Under the pieces are notes generated by a model that saw nothing but the letters and a program-made list of their open reading frames with translations, did no database searches and had not been told where the DNA came from. This document shows positions 2,111-64,000 of a DNA stretch of 64,000 nt, one piece after another; positions within the stretch are counted from its first letter, which is position 1, and every line of letters starts with the position of its first letter. Source of the DNA: Pseudomonas phage WP1; the sequence record PP596839.1; one strand, written 5' to 3'. A program made the position numbers and the translations under genes.

Positions 2111-2440
2111 CTAAATGGGGTTGGCGCGGTCTTCCTCGGTCGGTTCCGGCGTCGGGGACGGGAAATCGCCCTCTTTACCGTCCTGTACATGGCCATTGGC
2201 TTCGGCCGCAGCAGCGACGGTGGCGGTCTGAGCCTCGGCTTCCGATGCGTAGAAGCCTGCCAGTCCGCGACCGACCCTGGTTCTGCCAGGCTCGTCAACG
2301 AACGTGATTTCGGCCAGAACGTTCAGTTCCTTGATGGCAGGTAGACGGCTAGAGTCCTTGACAGTGGGATCGCGAACCACCTGGAGAAGTTCGATGAAGC
2401 GCCGTCTTTGGATTCCACAGATCGGACGTTCTGGTCGCAT
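2111..2440 (-). CDS. hypothetical protein (109 aa)
   Basis: ATG overlaps stop of upstream minus-strand gene (TGAATG); protein-like sequence. Confidence 0.5.
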   Translation of the reverse strand: MRPERPICGIQRRRFIELLQVVRDPTVKDSSRLPAIKELNVLAEITFVDEPGRTRVGRGLAGFYASEAEAQTATVAAAAEANGHVQDGKEGDFPSPTPEPTEEDRANPI

Positions 2441-2650
2441 TCAGCTGGCTTTGAACTGCTTGCGATAGTACGGGTTGGACTCCATCGCGAAGATGCGAGC
2501 CTGGGCCGGCCCGTCCATTGTGCTCTTCGCCCCAGGTCGCCCGGAAGACCCGCCAGGAGCTGTAGCCTTGAACGCGCAGGTCGATGTACAGGTCGAAACG
2601 CTTCTGGTTGATCGCCGCGAACTGCGGATCAGCGAATTCGTGGCGTGACT
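2441..2650 (-). CDS. hypothetical protein, frame-disrupted (…HEFADPQFAAINQKRFDLYIDLRVQGYSSW… then …MDGPAQARIFAMESNPYYRKQFKAS*)
   Basis: two adjacent protein-like segments in different frames on minus strand; no ATG in first segment. Confidence 0.3.
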   Translation of the reverse strand, partial: SHATNSLIRSSRRSTRSVSTCTSTCAFKATAPGGSSGRPGAKSTMDGPAQARIFAMESNPYYRKQFKAS

Positions 2651-2789
2651 AAATCGTCGGGTCTGTAGGATCTGGCGGTCATTTGTTGCTGCGTCCCTGG
2701 AGTTCGATTCTTGGACCGTCGCGGTTGCCTGGCTGTTGATGGGACCTAGTGCTTTGCCGCGACATCTGAGTATGGCGCGATTGTACCAT

Positions 2790-7258: not shown

Positions 7259-8431
7259 TACACAGGCTCCTTGCTAGTCGCGGCGTTGATGTACGCATCC
7301 AGCAGCTTCTGCGTATCAGCTCGGGCGACGCCATTGTACAGTAGCGCCATTACGGCATAATGCATCGCTTCCGTCTCGCGAACCGGGATCAGGGCATAAC
7401 CCTCTGGCGCGCCGTACCGAGACTTGGCGACCGCCAGCGCTTCGTTGAGCCGGAATCCTTCGCGTACCCAGTCCGTCAGCTTCCCTTCCAGCTCAGCGAC
7501 CCTGGCCAGAGCAGCATCGCGCTCCAGGACGATCTTCTGGGCGGCCTTGATGCTGGCATTGTCGCCGATGAACTAACAGCTTGCCGTCGCCGTCGCCTAC
7601 GCCCATGGTACATTCGTAGGTCGGCCGCTCCGCCTCTGCCTGCGCCGGTGAGGGTTGCGCCAGGGCATCGCGTTCCGCCTTATAACGGCAATAAGCATGG
7701 CCGTATTCATCGCCGACCACGCCGTCACAATAGCTCGCGGCCAGTTCGCTCCCGCGCTTTTCTGATTCGCCGAGTTTTTTCTCCAGCTCGATCGACCCTG
7801 GCCAGAGCAGCATCGCGCTCTTTGCGCATTCCATCCCAGGCCGCGAGGTGCTGCCGGGCCTGCTCTGCCAAGTAATCGCGATCAGCCCGCAGCTCCCCGA
7901 CGATGCTGTCGCACTCGGCGACCGTTGTAAGAGCTTCGGGGTCTTTCAATCCATGGTCCTGCTCATAGACCATTCCCGACTCCCCCGCTGCGATACCCAG
8001 CCACTGCCGGCCTCTTCACAGTCTGCCTTCGCAAGGTCTGGTCGCTTCAGCAGCTCGTTAACGCAGGCGTCGCGCTCTTCCTTGCTGCTGCACCCAGGCG
8101 GGTTGTTCTGCCCGTCTTCATGGCCCCATTCGTAAGCTTCGCTCAGCCTCTTCTTCTCTGCATTCTCGGCCTGCGACGCTTCCGGTTCGCTCCAGCGCTT
8201 TTCCGATTCTTCAAGTTCCTTTTCAAGCCGGATGCTGGTTTCAGTAACTTCGGCGAGCCGATTCACATCGGTCTTTTCGAACTTGGGAGCGCATTGAGGG
8301 CAGTCCTCAAGGTGTCGCTGCGGCTCGTCGCTGATCCACACCTGGCCGCTACCATTACAAATGGTGCATTTTCCATCGAAGTAAAGTTTGACCGATGCCA
8401 GTGCAGGCGGCGCACTTCCGAAGAATCTCAT
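7258..8431 (-). CDS. coiled-coil / zinc-ribbon protein(s) (CTICNGSGQ…CPQC), frame-disrupted; carries 27-bp internal direct repeat
   Basis: N-terminal Cys4 ribbon, long Glu/Arg/Ala-rich helical region, C-terminal …LLDAYINAATSKEPV*; TAATG overlap with next gene. Confidence 0.4.
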
Positions 8432-8587
8432 TTTCAGCGAAATCGATTCCCGCCTTGGTTAGCATCCATTCAGCCCTGATGCGGCCGGTCCCTGCCCAGT
8501 TTTCGAACTCTTGCGCCTTTACATGGCCCACTGTCGAAGTTCATTTAGCGCCTTATTATTGGGACCGGTGAATGGCGGTTGGTTGGG

Positions 8588-8609
8588 ATTGTTGTACAAA
8601 TACAACAAT
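8588..8609. promoter_or_regulatory. perfect inverted repeat ATTGTTGTA-CAAA-TACAACAAT (operator candidate) upstream of minus-strand gene starting at 8431
   Basis: 9-bp arms, 4-bp spacer, in 230-bp intergenic region. Confidence 0.3.
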
Positions 8610-8660
8610 GCAGTTTTATGGTGGTGATTCAGAGTCGGTTTATTGTTCATGCCAATCACC

Positions 8661-13390: not shown

Positions 13391-13442
13391 GCTTTACTTC
13401 TTAGCCAGGTGAGAGTAGTATTCCCTCATCGAAACGCGAAAC
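13391..13442 (+). promoter_or_regulatory. promoter TGCTTTACTTC-17-TAGTAT plus conserved leader CATCGAAACGCGAAAC (copy A)
   Basis: -35 TTTACT 13393-13398, -10 TAGTAT 13416-13421, leader 13427-13442, ATG at 13468. Confidence 0.5.
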
Positions 13443-49440: not shown

Positions 49441-50050
49441 TAGCTGATTGGACAGCCCTCGATGGTCATTTATCCATTTTCGTCAGTTTTTCTTTTCGAC
49501 TTTGCCATCGTTAATTCGAAGAGTCGTGGACTATGGCTGTATTATATACGCAGGACATCCAGGGTAAATAAGCGGAACAGTAATTAGATGTAGCCGCGAC
49601 TGTTAATTTACATTAGAATCTGTATTGTGATCTAATTACCGGATTTCCTCAGCCGCGAAAACTGGTAACTTGGTTTCGGAAATTTGACGGGATTTGTCTA
49701 AGCCTACTGCCGCAGGGCTTTCAGTCTTTAAACTAATCCAGGTTACCAGCTTACCAGTTAAAAATTGAATTTCAGTACGTATAGAGCATGGTCGATTCAC
49801 GTTATATTATAACGTTACTTATATATGAATTCTATTAGAACGTTATTCCTAATTTCCCATGCTATATACTTTTGCAGGATGCGGCGAAATTGGAAATTAG
49901 GAATTTAGCATGTTAAAGCCTTGCGGCAGTAGGCTTTCCAGGTAACCGCTATTTCCCAGGAAACGGTAATTTGCGGCTATCCGGACCCGAATTTTTGTTC
50001 AGGATCCGGATTTTCGCGGCATCATCAGCCGAAAGTAGTCAGGATCGAGA
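49441..50050. promoter_or_regulatory. AT-rich, ORF-free structured region with nested inverted repeats inside the head gene cluster (late promoter / packaging or replication signal / small inserted element)
   Basis: outer IR GCCTACTGCCGC (49702-49713) vs GCGGCAGTAGGC (49923-49934); inner IR ATTCCTAATTTCC (49845-49857) vs GGAAATTAGGAAT (49892-49904); palindrome CGTTATATTATAACG (49800-49814). Confidence 0.5.
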
Positions 50051-50084
50051 CGCCGATGATGGCCAGGTCCAGCTGCGGCAGGCT

Positions 50085-50375
50085 TCAGGCGAAGAATCCG
50101 CCGTTAATATTGGACTTGATCATGTCGGTCGCGAGTCGGCGTATGCATGTCTTTCGGTTCATTTCATCGAGCCTCGACAGCGAGTTTACCAGGGCGCGAA
50201 GATCGGCGACGAGTTCAGGCGAACAGTCTTTCGCCTTCTTCCCTTTCTCGCTGCGCTGGACGGAATAGGCTATGGCGGCTGCCTGTTTCGGGTCTTTCCC
50301 TGCTTCAGTTCTCCCGCTTGATGTTTTCAGGACGGGCTTCATTGGAAGTTCCATTGGACTAACGGCATGTCGCAT
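50085..50375 (-). CDS. hypothetical protein (96 aa), Mu G-like position between MuF-family gene and scaffold
   Basis: clean ORF 12 nt after MuF stop. Confidence 0.45.
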   Translation of the reverse strand: MRHAVSPMELPMKPVLKTSSGRTEAGKDPKQAAAIAYSVQRSEKGKKAKDCSPELVADLRALVNSLSRLDEMNRKTCIRRLATDMIKSNINGGFFA

Positions 50376-50387
50376 TCCTATCGACGA

Positions 50388-51890
50388 CTAAATGATTGGG
50401 ATTTTTCTGCACCGGCAGTTAATTGCCCAGCCTGGCGGTCCTTGGTCGGCCTTTGGACCTTCCCAAAGTCTAGGGTCATTCAGTTTGAATCTTTTCCCGT
50501 CCTTTTCCAGGTGGGTATGGCGAGGCGTCTTTCCTGCCGAAGAGTGCATCCATTCAAGCTCTTCGACTCCATTCTCTGCCATTCTCTCATCACTCAGCGA
50601 ACTGTAAAGTTTACTGGTTTGATCTCTTGCGATGAGTTCGATTCGGTTTTCAGGAAACTTTCCGACTTCTCTAAGTGCATTTGTTATCCCGGAAGTTCCT
50701 TGTTCCTCTGGGTTTGGAGAAGTCAGGTACAGTATTAGGGTGTGTAAATTTTCTCGTGGACTTCCTCTTGAATGTTGGTGATGAGGGTATGGTTGTAAGT
50801 AGTCGCGGCTTCCAGGGCGTTCCTGACGCTTTCGTTGTATGAAGCTCGCGGCTGATCGACACCGGCCATCGACAGGCGATGTAGAGTCGCAGCGGTCGCG
50901 GCTTCGTCGGCCCGATTGACGAACTCCGGGGCGATCTTTGCCGCGAAACCTTCAGAGATGCGATTCCACCGCTGCTGAAGGCTTCGCAGGGTCATCTTGA
51001 ACAGGACGTTCATCGATTCATTCTTTCGCGAAAAACCGTTCGGCCGCAGGCTGGGATATGGCCTTCTCTATTTCATTTCGATAATCGGCGATCATTAGCC
51101 TGGCCATGTCCTTCATTTGCTTTCGATACGAGGCCTTCGATTCCAGGAGGAGGAATTATGGGCTTGCCTCTTCCGACTGGAAGAGGCGCCCGGCGTTCGC
51201 GTTTCTTGGAGGCTTTGAACGCCATCACTTGCCTCCAGGTCGGCTTCGTCGTGTCGCCATTTGCCAGCCAGATGACGGAAGGCGGGCAGGTCAGCTTCAT
51301 GGATGGAGCCGAGTCCATCCCAGCCCGGGACGGAAGCAATAACAGGTATCCAGGCTTGGCGTCGTTAATGTTGTTGAAGCCGAGCATGGACTTGTGCTCG
51401 TCGAATTGCCCATCTTGTTCATCTGGTTGACGACGAAGACCCGTTTCGAACCAAGGTTCGGGCCGACGAAGCAGTCTACCTGATCACCATCAGCCCCCTT
51501 CGTACCTTTGATGAATCCATGGCGGTGCTTCATCTGTACTCGCCAGCTCCCATCCTTCCCTTGACGGATGCTACCGCGCGGATTCTCAGTCAGGGTGGTG
51601 ATTCCATTAACCTTGATTCTTTGGAGTTCCGAATGGTCGCGAGGGCCGACGATGCGGTTGGACGAAAACACCGAAGGTTCGATGCCCGATACGCTCGGCT
51701 TGGACGTTCGCTTCAGGCCTGGCGCATCATCATGCTCTATATCCACGCCGTTCGGAGCCTGCGCGTCGTCCAGGGCTTCGAGTTTCGACAGTAGGTCGGA
51801 CAGCAAGTTCCGAAGCTCGGCCCTGGGGTCCGGCCGCGACGGCGGTACGGCGGCCTCGGCGGCCCCTTCCTCGGCCGCTTTCGCGAGGGG
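50388..51890 (-). CDS. MuF / SPP1 gp7-family head morphogenesis protein, frame-disrupted
   Basis: C-terminal signature …GPPGWAINCRCRKIPII* (HxNCRC-type) and VEELEWMHSSAGKTPRHTHLEKDGKRF block. Confidence 0.55.
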
Positions 51891-51891
51891 C

Positions 51892-53532
51892 TTAGTACCG
51901 CGTGGCGCGGCCGGAACTGGGTCGCCTGCGCCTTCTACGGCGCCCGCTTGGGCTTCGGCTCGTTCGGCCTCGCCTTTCGCCTTCGCCGACTGCGCACCGG
52001 CCTTTTCGAGTTCGGCCAGGTTTTCCGGAGATATTGCCCGGCTCGGTTTCGGCCTGATCGTCGGTGAGTCGATTGTAGCCGGAGCGCGGATCGTCACGCA
52101 GGCGCTCGCGGACTTCATCCGGAGAGACGACGCCTGAGTTGATGTAAATTTCATCAGTAGCGGCTTTCTTGTTATTAAGCTCGGCTTGTTGCTGGCTGGT
52201 TGTGGAATCCACAGGGTTCCAGGTGATTTCCAGCTGTACATTGATTGCTTCCGATTTTGCCAGGCAGCAAGTAATGACGCTCAGCAGCGGGTCGAATATA
52301 TGCTCTTGAATCGATTCCAGCTCTTCGTGATAAGAAATCGTTTCGTGCTCACCAGTCGCGTTGAATCCTTTGGGAGAAGTGCCGAGTAGCTTCGTCGCAG
52401 GAGTCTTGGCGATGGCCGCAACCAGCCGATATTGGTTCATTATGACGCTGTCGAAATCGGACAGGTTCGTATCGAACTGCTCCATGGTTTCATCAGAACC
52501 AGTAACTTTCACGCGATTGGTTGTCTCGATTGGCGATCCAGGACGCCAGCCGGGCGTTGAAGGCATCCTCATTCGCGATGGCCTTTTCCACGGTCAACGT
52601 GAATGGTGCTGGTTCGCTTCGACATCGCCAGGAACGGCGCTTCGTTCGCAGTTCGCTCGGCAGCATGCAGGCGCTCGTAAATGCGCTGGGTGAGCGGGAT
52701 GCCTCCGAAAATGTATGTCGGCTTCAGGATATCTGGAGGCTGCGGCCCATCGAACGACCACCAGGTTGGCTGCGATGATACTTCTTCCCGCTGATGATCC
52801 AGAAATTGGGCTCATGGCAAGTGTTCGGCAGGCGGGTCTGCTGTGGACTCTGCAGTCAGCGAGGCATTGCCCAGTATGGATCGATCTGGGAAATTCCCTT
52901 GTACGAGCCGGGAGCTATTCCGTCTGGGTTGAATGGCTTCTCATGGTAGTCCGGATCGTCAGGCTCAGTGATGAACAGGGCGATTCGAACGCCGAAGACG
53001 TTTTTGAATCGGTTCAGTTCGACGAGGTTGTCTTTGACGCGAAACTCCATGTCGCGCCGAGCGATTAGCGCGCTTTGCTCATCAGGCAGCTTCCGGCCAT
53101 CCGACTTGAGTTCCCATCCGTTCCGCGCTGCGTCTTCGCCTGACATCTGGAGTAGGCTTTGTCGACCAGCCAGTGTTGAGAAATGATGGCGCAGGCTTGG
53201 TATCCGATGAATCCTTGGGAGTTATACCAGCTGCAGGACTGCTCGGTACTGACATGGGGATTCTGGCCGCCAGCGGCAGCTTTCGCGGCTGGGGTGGGTC
53301 CGTCACCATGCGCATTGTCCATTGCGACGGATAGGCCCGGCTCCAGGGAATCCTTCACGCTACGGATGACCGGGGCTTTCTCCGGCTTGACATTCCAGCC
53401 GCGAATCTTCCCCAGCTGAATCATGGGGTCGAGCGGATCGTGTTGAGGGATTCGTGCGACTTTCTCCGGCGCCGATTCAGAACAGGCAGGATTATCCTTT
53501 TTGCGCCCGAATATCCAGGAAAGTTTAAACAT
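51892..53532 (-). CDS. portal protein, Mu gp29 (DUF935)-like, frame-disrupted; alternative ATG at 53543
   Basis: N-terminal …[24 protein letters not shown]… and C-terminal …[17 protein letters not shown]… blocks. Confidence 0.55.
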
Positions 53533-53903
53533 TTTAATTCCATGCGGTTGCTGGTTGTGTGCACTTATTATAGGGGAAACATCAGACGTTCAAGAGAGAT
53601 TCAGGCAGGTACATCAGATTAACAGTCGCAGCTAATCAGTTATGAGAAAATAATTCTTTACGGGAACTTTTCGGCAGGTTAGACTCTAATTATCAGCCAG
53701 TGGAGATTAACATCAATCCTCTTCTTCCTATCGTACATGTCGTGTTGAAGGACGGCGAAGTTCTGGGCGTGTTCGACTGCGACAGGTCTGCGAAGTGGTA
53801 CAGGAATGTGAAAGACGCAGTTGTGGATTCCTGGGTAGTGGAATAGCCGAACAGCTCGCGCTCGCGCCTTGTCAGGAAAGAGTGCTATGAAGTCGGAGAT
53901 CAC

Positions 53904-54113
53904 GTGATGTATCGCGATGAGCATGGCGAAGGGCATGGCCGCATGTCGGCTGTCGAACCTCGCGGTGAATCGGCGCGTGACGAGAAAGAATTGTACCACC
54001 TGTATCAGGTCAGTAGCGACGATCCGTCCGTGGACATTTGGATGCTCGACGCAGGCATTATTGGCATTTATCCCGACGAAAAGCGCTTTACTTCTGAAGA
54101 GCAGGTGGAATAA
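53904..54113 (+). CDS. hypothetical small protein (69 aa)
   Basis: only protein-like ORF in the 53.6-55.2 kb gap; weak. Confidence 0.25.
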   Translation: MMYRDEHGEGHGRMSAVEPRGESARDEKELYHLYQVSSDDPSVDIWMLDAGIIGIYPDEKRFTSEEQVE

Positions 54114-55230
54114 AATCTGCTCATCTACCAGTAGGGTGACGAAATGGCAAGCATCAGGTATGGATCGCCATCGCTTTCCTTTGTACTGGCGATGGCTGTG
54201 TCCAGATGCCGGATCATGCCAGTAGGTCGGTTCGACAGGCAGGGCCAGTGCGAAGACGTCATGTGAAGAGCGATTGATAAGATGTGGGAGCGACATCAGC
54301 TGGTTGTTCGGGCCGTTTGTACGCCTTATTTCCTCAGCAGTACAGAAGTTCCCGGCTTTTACAGTCCGCCGCCCCAGCCGCTGATTGGTCTGAACCACTG
54401 CGCTGGGATATTTGGATTCGCGGCGGCAGCATCCCGTCTTATGAGCCGGGAAGGGGTTGGAGCGAATGAAGCCGCGCCGACCGGAAGTGCGGGTCAGTCT
54501 GGAAACTGCCCTGTGGATGTCGACATCCGCTGCGCTGCTCGCGGCGATAATCTCTAGCGCGGTTTTCCCGCCCTCGACGATTCAGTGTCCGGAAGAAAGA
54601 CCGCCTGCGGCCGAGCGTTTCCACCATCCGGAAAATAGTAGGTTCTTTCCTCACACAGAAAGGATAGTGAGTATGAAATATGTAGTGATGAAGATGACGG
54701 TCCGGGGAATGTCTCATTAAGTTCCCGTAATCTTCCCCGACTTAATCAGTCACGTCAGCATGGCCGCGAGTGCGTTGGTGGCCCTCGACGCCGAATGCGA
54801 AGGCTTCAGAAGGCTGGCGATAAAGTTGACATCAGGTGGTGTCGGCAGGCTTTCTGTCTTCCATGGATATTAATGGAAATTGCAACGGCCAGTCGGATTC
54901 GTTGAACGGTTTGAAGTCGAGAGAATCGGTGGATGACGAACTCATTCGCATTATCGACTACACTCATGGTTACGTCGGTTAAGGCTCGCTGCCTTTCCTG
55001 CGACAGGCGAGCTGTCCTGGACGAACGAAAACTGAAGTCGAAGCGCCCACCAGGATTGTAGGTGGTGTGGAGGATCGACATGGCGAATCGTCAGGTAAGT
55101 TACTTGTTACGGTTCGTGCAGGCATTATCCCCATGGGCAGGATCGGTCGGATGCATGCTCGACCGCTCAGGCTGAGCAGTAGTCGTTGAGCTTCCTGGAG
55201 CCTCAGGCCATTTCCCTTTCTGAGGTGAAT

Positions 55231-55577
55231 ATGGCTACTAAGGCCGATTTGGAATTGGAAGTTCAGCAGCTTCGACGAGTAGTCAGTCTCGCGAATTCGA
55301 AATTGAAGAGTTGCAGGGCCGACTGAGGCGCCATTGTGATATTATTCGCCGGGTCCGACTCTATCTTTGGAGCCGTTTGTTGATCCATCGCCGGACCGCC
55401 GAAACCCTGGAAGTCGGCGACAGGATCGCCAGGACCATCGCGACGAAGCGTCACAGGGTCGCTAACGACGTTCTTGGAATCATCCAGGATCTTAATGACT
55501 ACTGCGACAGTGATGCTGAGTACGACTACAACGACGGCGCTGAGCATGGATTCAAGATCAGCAGTGACATTTATTGA
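55231..55577 (+). CDS. small coiled-coil protein, one frame break
   Basis: GAGGTG RBS; MATKADLELEVQQLRRVVS… then …EFEIEELQGRLRRHCDIIRRV…. Confidence 0.4.
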
Positions 55578-55679
55578 TCGTCAGGAACCCGACGAACGGT
55601 AGTGCGAAAGTGCTACCGCGTTTCCATTTATGGAGTATAGTCAGCCCATTGAAACGAACTTTCCAGCAGGAGAATCGAT

Positions 55680-56347
55680 ATGAACGCAGTAGCCACCTTC
55701 AGCGGTTTCGACGATCTGGAATCCGAAATTGGATCCATCGAAATCTCGTCCGAAAAGCCCGCCACCTGGAAGATGCGTCCATGGGTGCCAGTAGAATCCA
55801 TTCAGAGCGGTCAGGATGTACCGCGAAAAATGCATTAAGTGCGCAGGGACTGGAATATATCGCGGACCTTCCTCCTATGGGTACCAGTGCTTTGCCTGCG
55901 GCGGCGTCGGCTACAAAGAGTACAGGGCCAGCCCCGAAGCATGTGCCAGGAGCCGGTCGAAGGCGGCTGAGAAGCGCCAGGAGGAACGCATGTCGGCCTT
56001 TGAGGCAGAACAGGCCAGGATCGCCAGGTTCGAGCAGGATCACCCGGACATCATTGAATGGTGGAGCGACAGCAGTTTCAGTTTCGCCTGCAGCCTTTGC
56101 GATTCGCTGTATCAGTGGGGTTGCCTGTCCGATAACCAGGTTGCCGCCGCGAAACGCGCCATTGAGAGTCTGGCTCAGTATCGCGAAGAGCAGGAAGGTG
56201 AAAGTCGAGGCTCTTCCGACCCTGGACATTTCCGGCATCGAAGAGGCTTTCGATAAGGCCAGAAATTCCGGCATCAGTAGCCTGAAGCTGCGCCTGGCCG
56301 GCGAAGGCGAAGACCCGTTGCTTGTGGTGATCAGTAAGCTAGCGTAA
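55680..56347 (+). CDS. DnaJ-type CxxCxGxG zinc-finger protein (about 222 aa), two frame breaks
   Basis: GGAG RBS; CIKCAGTG and CFACGGVG repeats. Confidence 0.45.
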
Positions 56348-56367
56348 ACAGCCGCAGTTACGGAAGC

Positions 56368-56609
56368 TTGTACGTCATCGGCGATGTGTACCTGGGCAGG
56401 ATCACTGGCGGCAGGTTCATCAGTAGCCGCGACTGCACCGACACTGAGAACGAAGAGATTCTGAAGATGTTCGAAAGGCCAGTGGAATCGGCAGTCGCCT
56501 ACGGTCGGAAGACTGGTCAGTGCTCCTGCTGCGGTCGCGAGTTGACCAGCCAATGGCATCCATTGAAATGGGAATCGGCCCTATCTGCGCCGGAAAGTTC
56601 TTCGGATGA
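56368..56609 (+). CDS. Cys-rich small protein (CSCCGRELT…GIGPICAGKFFG), one frame break
   Basis: motif becomes contiguous with one-nt shift at 56560. Confidence 0.4.
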
Positions 56610-57319
56610 TCCATCTTACAGTCAAAGTCATGGCCTGGTTCGCCCTTCTATGGGCGACCGGCTTGGCCCTCATGGCCTCTGCCATCCACTTCTGCTACTG
56701 AGGATTATCCATGGATACCGTCGCTGATCCGATGAAGGACAGAATCACGCTGCATTGGCCTGGGCTTCATCCAGGTCCAGCTTCCGGCAGGCCCGCCTCC
56801 GATGCATGGCATTCCGGAGCTGCCGCGCCGGATTTGCTTCCATCACTCTTCCATCCATGATCATCGATTCGATTTCGAGTCCTTGGTTCTGGTTGGGTCT
56901 ATGGAGAACATGAACTATTACGTTGACCGTTCGGCGCGCCTCTGTGAATTGACTCATTAAGGGTATGAGCACTCTTCGGCTCGCCAGGCCTGTGGCGGTC
57001 GCGGTTGGGAGCCTGTAGGCTCTGTATGCCTGCGCCAGAGGCAAGAATTCATCATCGGCGCCGGACAGCAGTACTCGATGTCGGCTTATGTCCCTCACAG
57101 GACGAATCCGCTCGGTGACGGTCGCGTGGCCACTCTCATTCGAAAGGGCGCCGTTCACAAATGGCCGGCCATTTCCTATGTGACCCTGGGAGTCGATCCT
57201 GAAACCGACTTCGACCGTTATCAATTGGTCGGCTCCGACGCTCTGGGAAGTCGTCACTGATGTCCTCGGCGGCGCCGAGTTCCAGGTCCCATCCATTCCT
57301 TGACCGAAGGAACCAAAAA

Positions 57320-57755
57320 ATGAAGAAATTCTGCATCGACATCACCAGTGGTCTGGCCGGCTTCATCACCTGGGGCGGCGCCATTGTCCTGGCGGCTTCC
57401 GTCTTAATCATTGGTCCGCTGGCCATCCTTCTGACCGGAGCCTGGGTCGTCTGCATGGCCGTAGTGTTCGCGCTCTGGTTCGCCGTCGCCGGCATCCATG
57501 AAGAGTCGCAGGCAGGCCGAATATTTGAAATCCATGGCGTCCCTCCAGGCTCGCGAGCGCGGCACCGGCTTTCACCCAGGAGACGCCGGGCCAAGCGCCA
57601 GCACTCCGGCGAATCCGGTAGAGCCAGGACTCAGCCACCCCGAGCTGAAGCCTGGCGCAGGGTTGGCCTCTGCAGTTGTGTTCTTCGCAGTGATCGTCGT
57701 TGTCCTGGCCGCGGGCGACTGGATCTGGAACTATTTCCAGGCTCTTCCGAAATAA
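57320..57755 (+). CDS. membrane protein with three TM helices (holin-like architecture), one frame break
   Basis: MKKFCIDITSGLAGFITWGGAIVLAASVLIIGPLAILLTGAWVVCMAVVFALWFAVAGI… and C-terminal GLASAVVFFAVIVVVLAAG. Confidence 0.45.
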
Positions 57756-57765
57756 TGGAAGAAAA

Positions 57766-57818
57766 TGCTTTACTTCCACTCTGGATGAAGGCAGGATAGC
57801 TCCATCGAAACGCGAAAC
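57766..57818 (+). promoter_or_regulatory. promoter TGCTTTACTTC… plus conserved leader CATCGAAACGCGAAAC (copy B; -10 poorly conserved)
   Basis: -35 TTTACT 57769-57774; leader 57803-57818. Confidence 0.4.
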
Positions 57819-57840
57819 CTTCAAGCAAAAGGAACCGACC

Positions 57841-58527
57841 ATTACCGACCAGGACGAATTCACTCCTGAAGCCATTGAGAAGGCGAAAGATCGCATTCGC
57901 AAGCTGACCGCAGTGGCGGCCGACTCGTCCAGTCCGCATGAAGCGGCCATCGCGGCCGAGCGGGTGAAGAAGTTAAAGGACAGGTATGATCTTCATGACT
58001 TCGAAGCGACCGGCGAGATTCGCGAAGAATTCGACGAGCAGGTTGCTACTCGTTACTATTCCGCAGTCCCGAACTGGATGAAGTTCTTCTCGGTGGCCGT
58101 GGCGACGTACAGTGATTGCATCATGGATTTCGTCGGCGGCATCAGCAATTATCGAGCATTGGCTAAGGCGTCCAGGAGCGCTCGCGACGGCAGCACCACC
58201 AAGCGCTGGGGTTATGCCGTTTGATTTAAAGGCTACAGGTCTGACGTTGAGCTGGCGGTAAACATGTTCAGCTCCCTGGTCGATGCAGTAGACCGTCTGT
58301 GCCGGGAATATCAGGAGGCTCAAGGTTTCGAGCGGTTCAGCGTCAAGGTCGCCGCGCAGTTTAAGCTCGCTGCGACCCAGGAAATCAGCGATCGCCTCCA
58401 GTCCATTACCCGGAAACGTATGGAGCTGGTTTCTTCGGCCGGAACGTCTCTGGTGGTGGTTAAGGAAGCTGCGGTCCACGGCATTTCGGCGATCCGGGTT
58501 ACAAGAAGTCGAATGTTACCAAGCTGA
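57841..58527 (+). CDS. DUF2786-like protein (…SSPHEAAIAAERVKKLKDRYDL…), uncertain start (ATT at 57841), frame break near 58224
   Basis: ORFs 57700-58224 and 58264-58527 in adjacent frames; N-terminal helix motif typical of DUF2786 family. Confidence 0.4.
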
Positions 58528-58643
58528 TTGCGTCTGGACGACAGTGACGGTCGGCGCGCCTACACTGCCGGGACCAGTGCTGGTCGCAGCATGGAAATCG
58601 TTCGGTCGGTGGAGGATTAACCATTGGTCTTCCTAGCGACAAG

Positions 58644-59039
58644 GTGATGCTGCGAATCGTCCAGTCCATCCTCGCGATCCTCATCGGGATCGCTTGGGCC
58701 TGCGCCGACTATGGAGTCGTGGCCGCCGAACTTCCGCCATCGTTGCAGGCCCATCCCGCGAGGCGAGGGCACAGCGAAGTCTCGGCCCGCGACCCTAGGT
58801 TGGTCGAGGCCGAAAAAGCGCGGGAAGAGGCCTTAGAATATGTCCTTTCGCTGCGCCCGGAAGTTATCGAGGCGAAAGCCCGCTTCGCGGCCGAGGCGGC
58901 GCAGCAAGGAATGTCCACTAAGAAGTATGCTGAGGTGCAGGGCCAGGCCAGGATTCTCACAGGAATGCTATTGGCGTTTGCAGCATTTCTGTTCATTTTC
59001 AGGACCATGCTACCCAGGCCTTTGAATAGGCCTGGGTAG
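58644..59039 (+). CDS. membrane protein (N- and C-terminal TM helices)
   Basis: 131-aa clean ORF. Confidence 0.45.
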   Translation: MMLRIVQSILAILIGIAWACADYGVVAAELPPSLQAHPARRGHSEVSARDPRLVEAEKAREEALEYVLSLRPEVIEAKARFAAEAAQQGMSTKKYAEVQGQARILTGMLLAFAAFLFIFRTMLPRPLNRPG

Positions 59040-59100
59040 ACCACAAACCCCAGCCAGAGGTAGAATCACCATTAAGAAAGAACCGATTCACCTCAGCTCG

Positions 59101-59421
59101 ATGGCCTCGGCCCGCGCTATCGATGCGGAATTCGCATTCCGGATGGACGAGTTCATGGCGCGTGTAGCGAAAGAGCACGAAGCGCTCGCCGCTCGCCTGA
59201 ATGCCGAGAATGAAGCGCTCTGGGGCGAAATCCGCGCTGTCGCCGGCCTGAGCGCCATCGACTTCCCGAACATCGCCATGGCGCATGACAATTCCGATGG
59301 GAAGCTCTATGTCATGGACGCCGACGAGTTGGAGCGCGTCCGCCAGTCCTGCCCGTGCCCGGACTGCGCATCCGCTCGCGCAGGAAGAATGCCGTCGCAG
59401 GCCAGTGGAGGGATTCATTAA
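59101..59421 (+). CDS. hypothetical protein (106 aa, CPCPDC motif)
   Basis: clean ORF; TAATG coupling. Confidence 0.45.
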   Translation: MASARAIDAEFAFRMDEFMARVAKEHEALAARLNAENEALWGEIRAVAGLSAIDFPNIAMAHDNSDGKLYVMDADELERVRQSCPCPDCASARAGRMPSQASGGIH

Positions 59422-59639
59422 TGGCTCTGAAGCTATCTTCCGTTCACGTTCGAATCGACGGACCTGACGGAAAAGTTCTGTCGGAAGGCCGCGCAGAGTT
59501 CTCCGGGACGGCCTTCTGGATCGCCGCGCAACGCGAAATGCAGCTCAGGCACCTCGTCGGAACTTCATTTGAAGGTGCCCTTACCTATTTGGCCGACAAC
59601 GGCTATAACGTAACATTCAGGAAAGGTGAAAAGCGATGA
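59421..59639 (+). CDS. hypothetical protein (72 aa)
   Basis: coupled start. Confidence 0.45.
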   Translation: MALKLSSVHVRIDGPDGKVLSEGRAEFSGTAFWIAAQREMQLRHLVGTSFEGALTYLADNGYNVTFRKGEKR

Positions 59640-60020
59640 TCGAAAGACACATCGTGGATGCGGAAGTCGTCGAGCGGATTCGTTCTCTTCGCCATGCGAC
59701 TCAGCGTCCTGGACGAAACCCTGCAACGGGCCGTCGACATGGCGATGCTCAGTCACCAGAAATCTCTGCAAGACCTTCGAACCTATGAAGCTCAACCCTG
59801 GGATGCGCTCAACGCCCGTTACGGCCTGTCCGTCGAGAAGACTTATGACCTGCGTTTCGAGGGCGAAGAAGCCGTGCTGGTCGAGGTGCCGCCCGGCGAC
59901 GGACAGGGCGATGACTTCATCGTCGAGTCGGAAACCGAAGCGCTCGCAGCAGGCCAGAAAGACCTGGAAGTCGGCGAGGCCGTTGCGTCGACACTCAGCG
60001 CCAGGAACCGCAACGAGTAA
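59636..60020 (+). CDS. hypothetical acidic protein, one frame break
   Basis: ATGA coupling; ends 7 nt before terminator. Confidence 0.4.
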
Positions 60021-60026
60021 TACCAG

Positions 60027-60058
60027 GAGCCCGGATCGCTCCGGGCTTTTCTGTGTTT
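60027..60058. terminator. terminator hairpin GAGCCCGGA TCGC TCCGGGCTT + T-run between convergent genes
   Basis: 9-bp stem, tetraloop, TTTTCTGTGTTT; terL stop immediately follows on the other strand. Confidence 0.55.
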
Positions 60059-61507
60059 AGAAGTCGAAGAAACCTTTGGGCTTCCTGATCGGCAGGAATG
60101 GCCGACATGATCACCGAATCAGCGATGTTCGGCGACTTGATCTTGCGCTTCTCGCGCATATCCTTCTTGGACTCGACTTTGAATCGGCCGTTCATGTCCA
60201 AGTCTTTGCGCGGCGAGGAAAGTTCGATACACTAGCTGATTTAGTTTGTCCGGGTGAATCGTTTCAGAGCTGATCGAAATCAATTCGTCGAATGGATAGA
60301 CCTTTCCATGGACAACCGCCTCGTAAGTCTTCCGGAACCTTGTCGCGACTTCTTCCCACTTTTGCGCCTTGATGTTGCTAAAGTGATCTTTGTTCTTGAT
60401 CGTGAGTGTGCGGCAGCTTCATGTAAATATCATCAGGCTTATCTACAGCGCCGCCTGCGTTGAATGGATCATAGGTCAGTCTGAAGCCTGGGCTGGAGTC
60501 ATTCAGTTCCTGCGAACTTCGACCCGACGTGAGCGCCGACGCCGATTGAGTCATAAGTGACCGAGGCGCCTTTCACCTTCGCCAGGTTGTAAACGCGACT
60601 GGACGACTTGAGCAACTCATCTTCCAGACCATCCCATTCGTCGACTTCCATGATGACGTTGCCGTGCATTAGAGTCGTGGCGTTCGCATCCTCGCCGTCA
60701 TCCGCAACGTCGAAGCCGATGCGCTTCGACCCGGCCGGCTCCCAGCCGAGTTTTTTGTGGGCATCAATGGCAGCGAGGATGAACTTGAGGTTGATGACGG
60801 ACCTGTCGCCGCCCGTCTTCGGAATCCCTCCATGGACGTGCTCAGCCTGGTCCTTGTCGCGCTCATAAGCTTCGATGGATGACCTTGAGCATCGTCTCAC
60901 TGAGAAACGGATTTTCGTTCCAGCTGATCATCCTGACGAAGGCGTCTTTTGGTGGCTTCACCACGAAGTTCTGATAAACGAAGCCTGTTACTTCGTTCGG
61001 GTTGAAGATGATCCAGATTCCTGAGTTCTCTTTCCGAATGGTCGGCTCAATGACTTCCCACTGTTCCTGGGTAAGGTAGTGCGCTTCCTCAAGCCAGAGA
61101 ATGTCAATGCCTTCGGTGGACTTGATTTCCGACAGGTTACGGGCGATCCCATAGAATAAGAATTCTGATCCTGTCCTCTTGTGCTTGATCGAGTTCTTCG
61201 TGAAAATGAACTCGCCGTTGTACTCAGAATTCTCAATCCTGTCCTTGATCAACGTGTAGACCGATTCGCTGATGCGGTTCTGAAACTGGCGAGCACAGAG
61301 GAACTGAGTCTATCAGCTGGCCGCGAGGTAAACGGCGATACCGCCTGCGTCGTGTGACTTCGAAGACGCCCGGCCGCCATGAATGACCCTGTAACGGGCG
61401 CGAGTTCGCCAGACCGCTCGCAATCGCAGGCTGAGCCTGTACATTCTAATCAATCCGGTGTCAGCAATAGGTCGAGTATATCGACGCCGCAACAGACGGT
61501 CGAGCAC
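60057..61507 (-). CDS. terL: terminase large subunit (Walker A GGRASSKS, Walker B ILWLEE, C-terminal nuclease [21 protein letters not shown]), about 3 frame breaks
   Basis: motifs in canonical order over ORFs 61313-61507, 60863-61252, 60499-60900. Confidence 0.7.
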
Positions 61508-61545
61508 AACCGTTCGTCGGTGAACATAATTTTACTGTTAATACA

Positions 61546-61596
61546 CTTTACTTCCATTCTGAATAGCGTCATAATCTCTTCATCGAAACGCGAAAC
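61546..61596 (+). promoter_or_regulatory. promoter CACTTTACTTC-17-CATAAT plus conserved leader CATCGAAACGCGAAAC (copy C)
   Basis: -35 61547-61552, -10 61570-61575, leader 61581-61596, ATG 61621. Confidence 0.5.
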
Positions 61597-61620
61597 ACTC
61601 CAAAACAGAGGAACGCAGAA

Positions 61621-61767
61621 ATGACCAAATCCCAGATCAACGATCAAATCCGCTCCGCCAAGATCGCCATCAGCGAGGCAGAAATGGAAGGCCTGCGCGG
61701 CCAGGCCATGATCGCCCTGAAAGCTAAGCTGACCACCCTCAAAGCTCAGTACAAACTCGCCAAATAA
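61621..61767 (+). CDS. small helical protein (48 aa)
   Basis: GAGGAA RBS; MTKSQINDQIRSAKIAISEAEMEGLRGQAMIALKAKLTTLKAQYKLAK. Confidence 0.4.
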   Translation: MTKSQINDQIRSAKIAISEAEMEGLRGQAMIALKAKLTTLKAQYKLAK

Positions 61768-61777
61768 GGGGCCAGAA

Positions 61778-62080
61778 ATGACTAAGCAGATCAATATCGG
61801 CGTCAGCAACTTCGACGAAGTTTTCATCCAGCACATAATCGGCGGCGGTTTCCTCTTCGATGTCGACGACCATGAAGTCACAGACCGCATCCTCCTGAAC
61901 GTGGATGGCGAACCGGCTATCCAGTTCGAACTGAATGCCGAACTGTGGAACGAAGAGACTCTGGGCATTCCGATGGACATCGACAGTGACGAGTTCGCCG
62001 ATGAGCTTCAAGACTGGGTCGAGTCTAAGGTTAATTTCGCCTTCGAAGAGTGGCTGAGCGCGGACGAAGGCGAAGAGTAA
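61778..62080 (+). CDS. highly acidic 100-aa protein (DNA-mimic / anti-restriction-like composition)
   Basis: clean ORF; about 30 percent D/E, ends ADEGEE. Confidence 0.5.
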   Translation: MTKQINIGVSNFDEVFIQHIIGGGFLFDVDDHEVTDRILLNVDGEPAIQFELNAELWNEETLGIPMDIDSDEFADELQDWVESKVNFAFEEWLSADEGEE

Positions 62081-62127
62081 TCATCAGGCGCGGCCGGCTG
62101 GTCGCGCCATTCACAGGAGAATTGTCG

Positions 62128-62340
62128 ATGTCCAAGCTAATCCCTTTCAACAGCATCGACGGTGAAGTCAAATTCGAACTGGAAGTCGCTGACGGGACGA
62201 AAATCGTCCTCATTGACGTAAGCGTCAGCGCCTCCCAGTTTCGGAAGTTCTGGCCTCTAGCAGACAGCCTCTGCTGGCACGAAGAGAATGCAGAGTTCGT
62301 TCCTCGATACAAGTCTTCTTACTTGCAGGGCGCCGACTGA
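62128..62340 (+). CDS. hypothetical protein (70 aa)
   Basis: internal ATG of ORF 62050-62340 with upstream GGAG. Confidence 0.45.
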   Translation: MSKLIPFNSIDGEVKFELEVADGTKIVLIDVSVSASQFRKFWPLADSLCWHEENAEFVPRYKSSYLQGAD

Positions 62341-63046
62341 GCTGTCCAACAGGGCAATCTTAGCGTTCGCCGCTGGGCAGTATTACCTGCGGGCCGATCA
62401 GGGACGTAAAGACGAATCCGAAGGTGTGACTTCTGACGAAAGCCTGATGGCCATGGAGCTTGATCGGGAGAACTCGCGCCTGGACGAATGCCTGCAAAAC
62501 TCCATCGCTCGCGAAGACAAGACGGCCGAGGTGAATCGCCAGCTTCAACTCAGAATCAGAGATCTGGAGGCTGAAGTCGAAACGAAGAACTCTGCCATAA
62601 AGGGTCACCAAAGAAGAATCGACGAACTGCTGAAGCACTCGCAGAACCTGTCCGCGCAGAACGTCGAATTTTCGCTGGAGCTGGAGTCCAAGAAGACTCT
62701 CCTGGAAGCACTCGACAAGAGCCTGGAAACCCTAATGGCCGACAAAGACAGGCTCGAAACAGCAGCGAAATCGGCCATCGACCTGGAAAACAAAGCTGTC
62801 GAAACGAATAGCCAGCTCGCCCTTCGAATCCGCGACCTGGAGGCCGAGCTGGCGTCCCAAAAGGCGCTCCGGGAAGAGCCTGACAGAAGCCTGGACGGAA
62901 GCATCGCCAATGCCAACAACCAGTACAAGCTCGCTTGCGAAGCGCGCGAAGCACTGTCGCAGGCGCGCGAGGATGCCGAGTTCTATCGCATCGGCATGCA
63001 AAGGATCGCGGAAATTGCGAACCGCAAACCTTTCGAGGACTGCTGA
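62288..63046 (+). CDS. coiled-coil protein with internal repeat (NRQLQLRIRDLEAEVE / NSQLALRIRDLEAELA); alternative start 62447
   Basis: 252-aa ORF, heptad-rich. Confidence 0.45.
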   Translation: MQSSFLDTSLLTCRAPTELSNRAILAFAAGQYYLRADQGRKDESEGVTSDESLMAMELDRENSRLDECLQNSIAREDKTAEVNRQLQLRIRDLEAEVETKNSAIKGHQRRIDELLKHSQNLSAQNVEFSLELESKKTLLEALDKSLETLMADKDRLETAAKSAIDLENKAVETNSQLALRIRDLEAELASQKALREEPDRSLDGSIANANNQYKLACEAREALSQAREDAEFYRIGMQRIAEIANRKPFEDC

Positions 63047-63251
63047 TCGTGCAGGAATATTGCCTGTACCATATCCCTCGGCCCGGAACGCTCCAGTTCG
63101 AATTCGAACGGACTGCCAGTTCCAAACTCGGCATCAATGACGGCTGCCTGTCCTGTCATCCGATGGCGAGCGCTACCTGAACGATCACGCTGACTGGCCC
63201 TGGCGACAGTTCCTGGCTTCCAGAAATTTCAGATAATTCTCTCAAAATTGC

Positions 63252-63301
63252 TTTACTCGATGAGGTGGCTGAGGTATAGTCACCTCATCGAAACGCGAAA
63301 C
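63252..63301 (+). promoter_or_regulatory. promoter TGCTTTACTCG-17-TATAGT plus conserved leader (copy D) embedded in 10-bp inverted repeat CGATGAGGTG / CACCTCATCG
   Basis: -35 63252-63257, -10 63275-63280, leader 63286-63301, ATG 63323. Confidence 0.5.
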
Positions 63302-63322
63302 GCTCAAAAAGAGGATTGCGAA

Positions 63323-63771
63323 ATGACCAGCTCCAAATGGAACATCGGCAGAAACGACACCATTGCAGTCGAGGCCGTAAACAGCCGCGAAGATTTCCGC
63401 TGGAATGGCAAGATTCGCGTTATTCACTACAGCGCCGGCCAAATCGTCAACATCATCGAGTTCTATCACCACGACCTGGACTGGGCGATCAAGAATTTCG
63501 GCATCAAGCTGAAGGCTATCTCCAAAGGCCTGGAAATACTCCACACCTGCTACTTCGGGAAGGTATGTCAAGTGATCGTCCAACTCGATTCCCAAGAAGA
63601 GAAAATCATCAGCCTGAGAACTCTGTCCAAGTATCGTCGCGCCGGTGGCAAGTTCGCGCCGATGGACGGGACTCAGACCGGTCCTGGGGTCCAGTCGACA
63701 ACGCGCTCTGGGCGAAGTTCGAAGCCGAAGCCAGGGCAGAATACATCCGCAAACAGGAGCGTAAAGCATGA
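63323..63771 (+). CDS. hypothetical protein (about 150 aa), one frame break near 63690
   Basis: MTSSKWNIGRNDTIAVEAVNSREDFRWNGKIRVIHYSAGQIV… then …NALWAKFEAEARAEYIRKQERKA*. Confidence 0.5.
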
Positions 63772-64000
63772 TCAAGCAAGACCTGTACAAGCAGATCGCC
63801 TTCGAGGCGATTGGCTCCGGCATCAGATGTTCGTCAAGCTTTACTGCAACGACACCATCCTGGAAGTCATCGGCGTCGAGGAGGCCCATGCTGATGGGAC
63901 GACTCGGCTGCGTTACACCGGCCACGCCGATGGTGTCGATATCCATTTCTTCATCAATGAAATCGACATTGGTGATGGTATGAGTGGCCATTCGATGTTC
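63768..64000 (+). CDS. hypothetical protein, N-terminal fragment running off window, frame break near 63830
   Basis: ATGA coupling; MIKQDLYKQIAFEAIGSGI then …MFVKLYCNDTILEVIGVEEAHADG…. Confidence 0.35.

What the first reader, a model, noticed from the sequence alone, without database searches (positions are those of the whole stretch)
53540..60056. Large terminase is isolated and inverted: a 6.5-kb plus-strand island separates terL from the portal gene
terL (60057-61507, minus strand) converges on plus-strand genes ending at 60020, with a shared terminator at 60027-60058. Its 5' end abuts the early promoter at 61546. The portal (51892-53532, minus strand) lies 6.5 kb away, whereas in Mu-like head modules the large terminase normally sits right upstream of the portal. 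Between them are 1.7 kb with no convincing ORFs (53540-55230) and then ten plus-strand genes (55231-60020). These have their own promoter with the conserved leader (57766-57818) and their own terminator. They encode two membrane proteins, a DnaJ-type zinc-finger protein, a Cys-rich CSCCGRELT…GIGPICAGK protein and a DUF2786-like protein. No small terminase is recognisable anywhere in the window. This looks like an accessory (moron-type) insertion or a rearrangement. It is a prime place for anti-defence, exclusion or other host-interaction functions.
Basis: partly seen in the sequence, partly recalled or inferred. Interest (0 to 1): 0.7.

Follow-up and report, generated by a model that had tools for sequence, protein, structure and literature searches.

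The report
Conserved early-gene block of PB1-like phage
The "island" between the large terminase and portal genes is the normal, already described early host-takeover gene block found in essentially every PB1-like (Pbunavirus) Pseudomonas phage, so it is not an insertion or rearrangement; its apparently gene-free stretch comes from sequencing-type errors in this window.

Summary
The window is a near-complete genome of a PB1-like lytic Pseudomonas aeruginosa myovirus (genus Pbunavirus), not a Mu-like phage. The layout is real. terL (60057-61444, minus strand) and the portal gene (51225-53532, minus strand) point the same way, with a 6.3-kb plus-strand block between them. The same layout is colinear in 280 of 302 matching phage records. 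It also occurs in more distant relatives (tabernarius, Bas100, BCSR52, one metagenome contig), where the block is 0.4-3 kb. The block corresponds to 14-1 gp04-gp17, published as part of the "early genome region". It includes gp12, an RNA-polymerase alpha-subunit-binding transcription inhibitor, and gp11/YIP, a peptide that binds the diguanylate cyclase YfiN. The "1.7 kb without ORFs" holds four conserved genes that are broken in this window. The window carries 2.5-11 indels per kb and a strand-switching CA(N)A-to-G miscall pattern, and no ORF exceeds 356 aa. The "DnaJ zinc-finger" and "CSCCGRELT" proteins are one protein (gp12). A small terminase gene is present at about 2114-2673 (E217 type, PDB 7UXE), and its separation from terL is published. 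The known Pbunavirus anti-defence island (14-1 gp80-88) lies elsewhere. Verdict: ordinary and already known.

The parts
51225..53532 (-). Portal gene (14-1 gp18 / E217 and Pa193 gp19). It is 765 aa in intact relatives, with Phage_portal_3 plus a C-terminal InPase domain. Here it is broken by 18 indel events.
   Evidence: (PDB 9B41, 8FVH)
53533..53711 (.). Divergent intergenic region between the portal gene and gp17. It has a CTTTAC -35-like box at about 53656 facing gp17. The 14-1 record annotates a sigma70 promoter here facing the portal gene.
53712..54113 (+). gp17 homologue (133 aa, phrog_5124, function unknown). In the window the start reads ATC and there is one in-frame stop.
54085..54116 (+). 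Sigma70-like promoter candidate (GCTTTACTTC ... TAAAAT) upstream of gp16.
54144..54469 (+). gp16 homologue (107 aa, phrog_5244), frameshifted in the window.
54466..54667 (+). 67-aa ORF annotated in PAC8 (phrog_6668). A hydrophobic stretch suggests one membrane helix (read from the sequence only).
54673..54982 (+). gp15 homologue (103 aa, phrog_28487), frameshifted.
55231..55577 (+). gp14 homologue (115 aa, phrog_5213), frameshifted.
55680..56609 (+). gp12 homologue (309 aa) with an N-terminal CxxCxGxG x2 zinc finger, a helical middle and a C-terminal DUF6011. 14-1 gp12 is a published RNAP alpha-subunit binder and transcription inhibitor. Five indels split it here.
56606..56701 (+). gp11 / YIP homologue, a 31-aa membrane peptide. 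14-1 gp11 binds the diguanylate cyclase YfiN. The ORF is intact in the window and 21/31 residues match 14-1 gp11.
56711..57303 (+). gp10 homologue (195 aa, phrog_4784, function unknown), frameshifted (5 indels).
57320..57755 (+). gp09 homologue (145 aa), a multi-pass membrane protein, frameshifted.
57767..57818 (+). Internal sigma70-like promoter with the conserved leader (GCTTTACTTCCA...GGATAG...CATCGAAACGCGAAAC), upstream of gp08. It is conserved in 14-1 and zikora.
57841..58620 (+). gp08 homologue (259 aa) with DUF2786 and DUF7168. In the window the start reads ATT and there are in-frame stops and frameshifts.
58623..59025 (+). gp07 homologue (133 aa), a membrane protein with N- and C-terminal hydrophobic helices.
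59071..59421 (+). gp06 homologue (116 aa, phrog_5465). No indels, but the start reads ATT.
59421..59639 (+). gp05 homologue (72 aa, phrog_5013), intact.
59636..60020 (+). gp04 homologue (127 aa, phrog_5237), frameshifted.
60025..60058 (+). Intrinsic terminator hairpin with a T-tract, between the convergent gp04 and terL genes. It is conserved in zikora, PAC8 and 14-1. The U-tract is good on the plus strand only.
60057..61444 (-). terL (460 aa in relatives, Terminase_3). In the window it is broken into at least six frame pieces and has a double stop.
61545..61596 (+). Early sigma70-like promoter with the conserved leader. It fires away from terL and drives gp02 and gp01.
2114..2673 (-). Small terminase (TerS) homologue of E217 / PBanzai_081, frameshifted. 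It lies roughly 7 kb upstream of terL on the circular map.
   Evidence: (PDB 7UXE)

Best explanation
The region is the conserved opposite-strand gene block of the genus Pbunavirus (14-1 gp04-gp17). It sits between terL and the portal gene, which are co-oriented with each other.

Shown here:
- The block has its own sigma70-type promoters, which share the -35 box GCTTTACTT. One of them carries the same leader as promoters in the early region beside terL.
- The block ends at a conserved terminator that faces the terL stop codon.
- Across related genera, the terL-portal slot always holds oppositely oriented small genes. The slot grows from 0.4 kb to 6.3 kb, with a gp12-like gene, and in one relative a gp08-like gene, as the recurrent core.

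From the literature:
- The block belongs to the early genome region.
- gp12 binds the RNAP alpha subunit and inhibits host transcription. It may also redirect RNAP to phage-specific promoters.
- gp11/YIP binds YfiN and raises c-di-GMP.

Inferred:
- The host RNA polymerase transcribes the block early in infection, and its products take over host functions.
- The remaining members (two membrane proteins, the DUF2786/DUF7168 protein and small ORFans) have no assigned function. I take them to be further early host-takeover or exclusion factors.

The broken ORFs and the apparent gene desert in this window are sequencing or consensus errors, not biology.
For: - Identity and colinearity with Pbunavirus.
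- Annotated synteny in zikora, PAC8 and 14-1.
- Gene-by-gene mapping into the window.
- Synteny beyond the genus: tabernarius, Bas100, BCSR52 and metagenome contig L010. Only gp12 and gp08 are shared.
- Promoter/leader repeat. Terminator.
- Composition is not atypical.
- Literature: conserved architecture with TerL and TerS genes separated (PMC12390725; PMC9611059). gp12 binds RNAP alpha (PMC10914365; PMC8085984; PMC6748951). gp11 is YIP and the block is 'early genome region' (PMC8085984).
- Error signature of the window.
Against: - I could not obtain time-resolved expression data for gp04-gp17. The supplementary TSS/TTS tables of the 14-1 ONT-cappable-seq study are not held, so 'early' rests on promoter type and on the wording of published screens.
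- Twelve of about fourteen proteins have no assigned function.
- The gp12 model (pLDDT 88) has no convincing structural relative, so I cannot show how it binds RNAP.
- The cause of the window's error signature is inferred rather than proven. Without reads I cannot exclude noise added in silico or a DNA-modification effect.
Confidence: 0.88

Rival explanations
1. One reading: a recent accessory (moron-type) insertion, or a rearrangement specific to this genome, that split terL from the portal gene.
For: - The block has its own promoters and terminator.
- Block size varies between genera.
- One internal slot is accessory: the 14-1 gp13 methyltransferase-like gene occurs in only about 58 Pbunavirus records.
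Against: - The same block in the same place is colinear in 280 of 302 records.
- No indel longer than 2 bp separates the window from zikora inside the block.
- GC is identical to the genome average.
- An opposite-strand slot between terL and the portal gene exists in every relative examined.
Confidence: 0.03
2. An assembly artefact: an inversion or chimeric join at about 53.5 kb and 60.06 kb.
For: The window is clearly a low-accuracy sequence.
Against: - Both junctions are reproduced in hundreds of independently sequenced genomes.
- The whole window is colinear with zikora.
- The junction sequences, terminator and divergent promoter region all align base for base.
Confidence: 0.01
3. The block is, wholly or partly, an anti-defence or superinfection-exclusion locus. 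On this view the membrane proteins gp07 and gp09 and the small ORFans counter host immunity or exclude other phages.
For: - It consists of small, early-type, promoter-driven ORFans that include membrane proteins.
- Pbunaviruses are known to carry many anti-defence genes.
- gp12 exists as two diverged allele classes, about 72% identical in a genus that is over 85% identical overall. This is compatible with arms-race pressure.
Against: - The mapped anti-defence island is 14-1 gp80-88, and its deletion accounts for the host-range losses that were tested (PMC13307970).
- The named inhibitors Bdi1, ZadI-1, TadIII and DadIII-1 lie outside the block.
- The two characterised block proteins act on RNAP and YfiN, not on defence systems.
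- The block's gene content is nearly invariant, unlike the plastic anti-defence island.
Confidence: 0.12
4. The block encodes non-structural packaging or head-assembly helpers, which would explain why it is embedded between terL and the portal gene.
For: - It sits inside the packaging/head module.
- The position is conserved across genera.
Against: - It is on the opposite strand to the structural operon and has sigma70 early-type promoters that share a leader with the early region.
- Only gp12 and gp08 are conserved outside the genus, and Bas100 and BCSR52 share none of the genes.
- gp12 and gp11 have published host targets unrelated to assembly.
- TerS is encoded elsewhere.
Confidence: 0.05

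Closest known systems
Pseudomonas phage 14-1 / PB1 (genus Pbunavirus): genes gp03 (terL), gp04-gp17 and gp18 (portal)
   Same: - Same gene order, orientation, promoter/leader element and terminator.
- 80-95% nucleotide identity over the whole 8.6 kb.
- gp12 (DUF6011) and gp11 (YIP) homologues are present.
   Different: - The window lacks the accessory 14-1 gp13 methyltransferase-like gene.
- It carries the minority zikora-type gp12 allele, about 72% identical to 14-1 gp12.
- Most ORFs are broken by sequence errors.
Pseudomonas phage zikora (MW557846), the nearest database relative
   Same: - 95% identity and colinear over the whole window.
- Identical block gene content.
   Different: - Zikora has an extra promoter-plus-62-aa-gene cassette next to the terL 5' end, which the window lacks (a 331-bp gap at 61545).
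- Zikora's ORFs are intact.
Related genera: Tabernariusvirus tabernarius, Escherichia phage Bas100, Burkholderia phage BCSR52 (Bcepfunavirus), and metagenome contig ERZ27252442 k141_5270930
   Same: - All have terL and a portal (+InPase) gene co-oriented, with a short opposite-strand gene cassette between them.
- A MuF-type gene lies downstream of the portal gene.
   Different: - The cassette is 0.4-3.1 kb with 2-6 genes.
- Only gp12 (tabernarius, metagenome contig) and gp08 (metagenome contig) are shared with Pbunavirus.
Pbunavirus anti-defence island (adi, 14-1 gp80-88; Bdi1, Bdi2, gp82, anti-END/ZadI-1)
   Same: Both are clusters of small early ORFans in the same genomes, driven by host-type promoters.
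   Different: - The location differs: the anti-defence island lies in the early region on the other side of terL, near TerS.
- The island's gene content is highly plastic, whereas this block is nearly invariant.
- No block gene is among the published inhibitors.
Mu-like head module
   Same: A Mu F / SPP1 gp7-type minor head protein lies directly downstream of the portal gene.
   Different: - The portal is of the Phage_portal_3 type.
- terL is not adjacent to the portal gene.
- The phage is a strictly lytic, 66-kb, headful-packaging myovirus with its own replication module.

Membership tests
Pbunavirus (PB1-like) genome architecture | High nucleotide identity and colinearity with Pbunavirus genomes | tested here: met
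   302 phage records match window 53000-61600, and 280 cover at least 80% of it. The whole window is colinear with zikora at 92-95% identity.
Pbunavirus (PB1-like) genome architecture | Gene order terL (Terminase_3), opposite-strand gp04-gp17, portal (Phage_portal_3 + InPase), MuF | tested here: met
   Annotations of zikora, PAC8 and 14-1, Pfam results and mapping into the window.
Pbunavirus (PB1-like) genome architecture | E217-type small terminase encoded far from terL | tested here: met
   tblastn with PBanzai_081 hits window 2114-2673 on the minus strand in two frames. The protein matches PDB 7UXE. The separation is published.
Mu-like phage head module | terL immediately upstream of the portal gene | tested here: not met
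   A 6.5-kb opposite-strand block lies between them here and in all relatives.
Mu-like phage head module | Mu-type portal family | tested here: not met
   The Pfam scan returns only Phage_portal_3 (PF06381) and InPase (PF18823) for the intact orthologue. The closest solved portals are Pa193, E217 and Pam3.
Mu-like phage head module | Mu F-like minor head protein after the portal gene | tested here: met
   PF04233 scores E = 4.5e-11 on the gp19 orthologue. The domain is shared with SPP1-like phages, so it is not diagnostic.
Mu-like phage head module | Transposase-based replication and lysogeny genes | not tested
   Literature only: Banzai has no integrase or repressor and encodes a Pol III-like replication module.
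Moron / accessory insertion | Own promoter and terminator | tested here: met
   Promoter candidates at 54085 and 57767, and a terminator at 60025-60058.
Moron / accessory insertion | Sporadic presence among close relatives | tested here: not met
   The block is present and colinear in 280 of 302 records. Only the gp13 slot is sporadic, and gp13 is absent from the window.
Moron / accessory insertion | Atypical base composition | tested here: not met
   GC is 0.565 in the block and 0.563 in the window.
Pbunavirus anti-defence island (adi) | Corresponds to 14-1 gp80-88 or contains Bdi1, Bdi2, gp82 or ZadI-1 | tested here: not met
   The block corresponds to 14-1 gp04-gp17. The island and the named inhibitors map elsewhere.
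14-1 gp12 family (DUF6011 RNAP alpha-binding transcription inhibitor) | Full-length homology, including both zinc-binding Cys clusters and DUF6011 | tested here: met
   DUF6011 scores E = 9e-15. The zikora-type protein matches 14-1 gp12 at 222 of 310 residues. The invariant cysteines are C52, C55, C71, C74, C282, C285 and C303 across 42 homologues.
14-1 gp12 family (DUF6011 RNAP alpha-binding transcription inhibitor) | Intact reading frame in this window | tested here: not met
   Five indel events split it into three frame pieces. I attribute this to sequence error.
14-1 gp12 family (DUF6011 RNAP alpha-binding transcription inhibitor) | Binding to the RNAP alpha subunit and transcription inhibition | not testable with these tools
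   Known only from the literature, for 14-1 gp12.
YIP (YfiN-interacting peptide, 14-1 gp11) | 31-aa hydrophobic peptide gene overlapping the gp12 stop codon | tested here: met
   Window 56606-56701 is an intact ORF with 21 of 31 residues identical to 14-1 gp11. It belongs to phrog_11554.

The most novel reading that the evidence does not exclude
The slot between terL and the portal gene may be a lineage-wide accretion site for oppositely oriented early genes in PB1/BcepF1-like myoviruses, growing from 0.4 kb to 6.3 kb. Early transcription converging on terL could then serve as a timing device. Through transcriptional interference or antisense read-through across the gp04/terL terminator, it would hold back terminase expression until gp12 shuts off the sigma70-type early promoters. 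In Bas100 and BCSR52 the convergent genes abut or overlap terL with no terminator between them, so overlapping transcripts seem unavoidable there.
Probability: 0.1. Interest if true: 0.45.

Novelty: already known. Interest (0 to 1): 0.1.

Why it matters
It matters little as a discovery. [quoted passage not shown]

The practical value is cautionary. This window is an error-laden copy of a well-known genome, so ORF-based anomalies in it (gene deserts, split proteins, missing genes) should not be trusted.

The one open point of some interest is that about twelve conserved proteins of the block still have no assigned function. In addition, the terL-portal slot holds opposite-strand genes in all four related lineages examined.

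Tried and rejected
- Function prediction for the block proteins. Pfam gave only DUF6011, DUF2786 and DUF7168. PHROGs placed every protein in an 'unknown function' family. PADLOC gave no hits. PDB sequence searches of gp12, gp10 and gp08 found nothing credible.
- Genomic context of a P. aeruginosa chromosomal or plasmid gp12 homologue (P0015) was uninformative, with only ORFans nearby.
- Rfam found no family anywhere in the window, so the conserved leader is not a known RNA.
- The supplementary TSS/TTS tables of the 14-1 ONT-cappable-seq paper are not held. Ceyssens 2009 and Lokareddy 2022 are not held either.
- Stop-codon reassignment was rejected as the reason for the short ORFs. The gene pieces change frame, so this is not in-frame readthrough.
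- A degraded prophage was rejected. The phage family is strictly lytic. The indels hit every gene evenly. The substitutions show a context- and strand-specific pattern that switches strand along the window.
- The indels are not homopolymer-biased, so classic homopolymer error does not explain them.

Full report
**What the window is.**
A megablast of window 53000-61600 against 50,697 phage records finds 302 matches. Of these, 293 are Pseudomonas phages of the genus Pbunavirus (PB1-like). In 280 records a single colinear place covers at least 80% of the query at 80-95% identity. The best match is phage zikora at 95%. The whole 64-kb window is colinear with the reverse complement of the circularly permuted zikora genome at 92-95% identity.

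**Sequence quality.**
- No ORF in the whole window exceeds 356 aa.
- terL falls into at least six frame pieces and has a double stop. The portal gene has 18 indel events.
- Against zikora, the last 14 kb contain 61 one-base indels and 829 substitutions. The indels are not homopolymer-biased, and insertions outnumber deletions.
- About half of the window-private substitutions lie one or two bases 3' of a CA dinucleotide. CAA>CAG occurs at 75 of 122 sites and CANA>CANG at 66 of 113, against a background rate of 2.1%.
- This pattern is strand-specific and independent of gene orientation. It affects 58-87% of plus-strand sites between 28 and 60 kb, is mixed at 8-28 kb, and flips to the minus strand at 60-64 kb.
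- It also explains why three CCATG start codons read ATT.
- Such a mosaic, context-specific pattern points to a technical artefact, most plausibly a low-coverage single-molecule consensus, rather than biology. I cannot prove the cause without reads.
- Third codon positions still carry 54% of the substitutions, so real divergence is present as well.

**The observation.**
- terL runs from 61444 to 60057 on the minus strand.
- The portal gene runs from 53532 to 51225 on the minus strand. It is 765 aa in intact relatives, with Phage_portal_3 plus a C-terminal InPase domain, and matches the solved portals 9B41 and 8FVH.
- The two genes are therefore co-oriented, and it is the block between them that is inverted.
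- Mapping the annotated genes of zikora, PAC8 and 14-1 into the window gives 14-15 plus-strand genes from 53712 to 60020.
All are conserved PHROG families, and all are broken here by indels, stops or a mis-read start codon.
- The 'DnaJ-type zinc-finger' and 'CSCCGRELT' proteins are the two ends of the single 309-aa gp12.
- The promoter-plus-leader at 57767-57818 is real. Its leader is one of four exact plus-strand copies of ATCGAAACGCGAAAC (13428, 57804, 61582, 63287). Three of the four follow a GCTTTACT -35 box; the 61545 copy reads ACTTTACT.
- The element is conserved upstream of gp08 in 14-1 and zikora.
- The gp04/terL hairpin at 60025-60050 is stable and conserved, but only the plus strand has a good U-tract.
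- A small-terminase homologue does exist in the window at about 2114-2673 on the minus strand, frameshifted. It is the E217-type TerS with solved structure 7UXE. Its separation from terL is published (PMC9611059; PMC12390725).

**Is the block an insertion or a rearrangement? No.**
- The block is present and colinear in essentially all Pbunavirus genomes.
- No indel longer than 2 bp separates the window from zikora inside it.
- Its GC content equals that of the genome.
- The same plan extends beyond the genus:

| Relative | Genes between portal and terL | Size | Genes shared with Pbunavirus |
|---|---|---|---|
| Tabernariusvirus tabernarius | 5 plus-strand genes | 2 kb | gp12 homologue, 42% identical |
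| 70.7-kb metagenome contig (L010) | 6 genes | about 3.1 kb | gp12-like and DUF2786/DUF7168 (gp08-like) |
| E. coli phage Bas100 | 2 small opposite-strand genes | about 0.65 kb | none |
| Burkholderia phage BCSR52 | 2 small opposite-strand genes | about 0.4 kb | none |

- The opposite-strand slot is therefore ancestral to this phage lineage, and it has expanded in Pbunavirus.
- Within Pbunavirus, the only accessory element I found inside the block is the 14-1 gp13 methyltransferase-like gene. It occurs in about 58 records and is absent here.

**What the block does.**
- The literature treats these genes as part of the early genome region. In a screen of 38 early ORFans, 14-1 gp12 had previously been identified as a transcription inhibitor, and 14-1 gp11 (31 aa) was identified as YIP. 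YIP binds the diguanylate cyclase YfiN and raises c-di-GMP (PMC8085984).
- gp12 interacts with the RNAP alpha subunit and may redirect RNAP to phage-specific promoters (PMC10914365; PMC6748951).
- The window encodes both proteins. gp12 is broken. The gp11 ORF is intact, with 21 of 31 residues identical to 14-1 gp11.
- The remaining proteins match only PHROG families of unknown function.
- I obtained a confident AlphaFold2 model of gp12 (pLDDT 88), but it has no meaningful structural neighbour.
- gp12 belongs to a large family, with 210 homologues at E below 1e-5 and invariant cysteine clusters.
- Within Pbunavirus, gp12 occurs as two allele classes about 72% identical to each other. The window has the minority zikora type.

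**The anti-defence idea.**
- The experimentally defined Pbunavirus anti-defence island is 14-1 gp80-88 (PMC13307970).
- The inhibitors named for Banzai (genes 087, 097, 105, 071rev) also lie outside the block.
- An anti-defence or exclusion role for some unassigned block genes is not excluded, but nothing here supports it.

**Verdict.**
The layout is real but ordinary. It is the conserved, published architecture of a well-studied phage genus, so the insertion/rearrangement reading is refuted. The host-interaction guess is right but already known. The gene desert, the split proteins and the 'missing' TerS come from a poor-quality sequence.

Noticed in passing
whole window (quantified at 50000-64000 and in 4-kb bins over 1-64000): Relative to zikora and PAC8, the window carries a context- and strand-specific substitution pattern on top of 2.5-11 indels per kb. 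CAA>CAG and CANA>CANG occur at 58-87% of plus-strand sites between 28 and 60 kb. The pattern is mixed at 8-28 kb and flips to the minus strand at 60-64 kb. It looks like a basecalling or consensus artefact, possibly linked to DNA modification, but the cause is unproven.
   Followed up: partly
window 61545 (gap relative to L001 11538-11870): Zikora has a 331-bp cassette carrying a copy of the early promoter/leader and a 62-aa gene, flanked by two copies of that promoter. The window and 14-1 lack it. Banzai carries TadIII (gene 105) as its last annotated gene, just upstream of terL.
   Followed up: partly
window 51225-51650 (3' part of the portal gene, minus strand): The portal protein carries a C-terminal InPase (PF18823) domain. 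This domain also occurs in large phage proteins of PHROG families annotated as DarB-like antirestriction and endolysin. The fusion is conserved in tabernarius, Bas100, BCSR52 and a metagenome relative.
   Followed up: partly
window 55680-56609; L003 5672-6604: gp12 exists as two allele classes in Pbunavirus. Eighteen records are at least 95% identical to the zikora/window type, and 279 records are only about 72% identical. This is far more diverged than the flanking genes, which suggests recombination or diversifying selection on the RNAP-binding protein.
   Followed up: partly
L003 6707-7207 (between gp14 and gp12; absent at window ~55578-55679): A 166-aa methyltransferase-like gene (14-1 gp13) is present in about 58 Pbunavirus records only. 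Homologues occur in a Salmonella phage and in Mycobacterium and Gordonia phages.
   Followed up: partly
window 13391-13442, 57767-57818, 61545-61596, 63250-63301: There are four plus-strand copies of a promoter with a conserved transcribed leader (GCTTTACT...N17...-10...CATCGAAACGCGAAAC...RBS). The invariant 15-nt leader suggests a shared post-transcriptional or RNAP-related signal. No Rfam family matches it.
   Followed up: partly
window 7432-8658: This stretch of about 1.2 kb has no blastn match to zikora, although both flanks align. It is probably a variable gene near the replication and early regions.
   Followed up: no
L006 1428-1432 and L007 4500-4503: In Bas100 and BCSR52 the opposite-strand genes abut or overlap the terL stop codon with no room for a terminator, so convergent transcripts must overlap terL there.
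   Followed up: no
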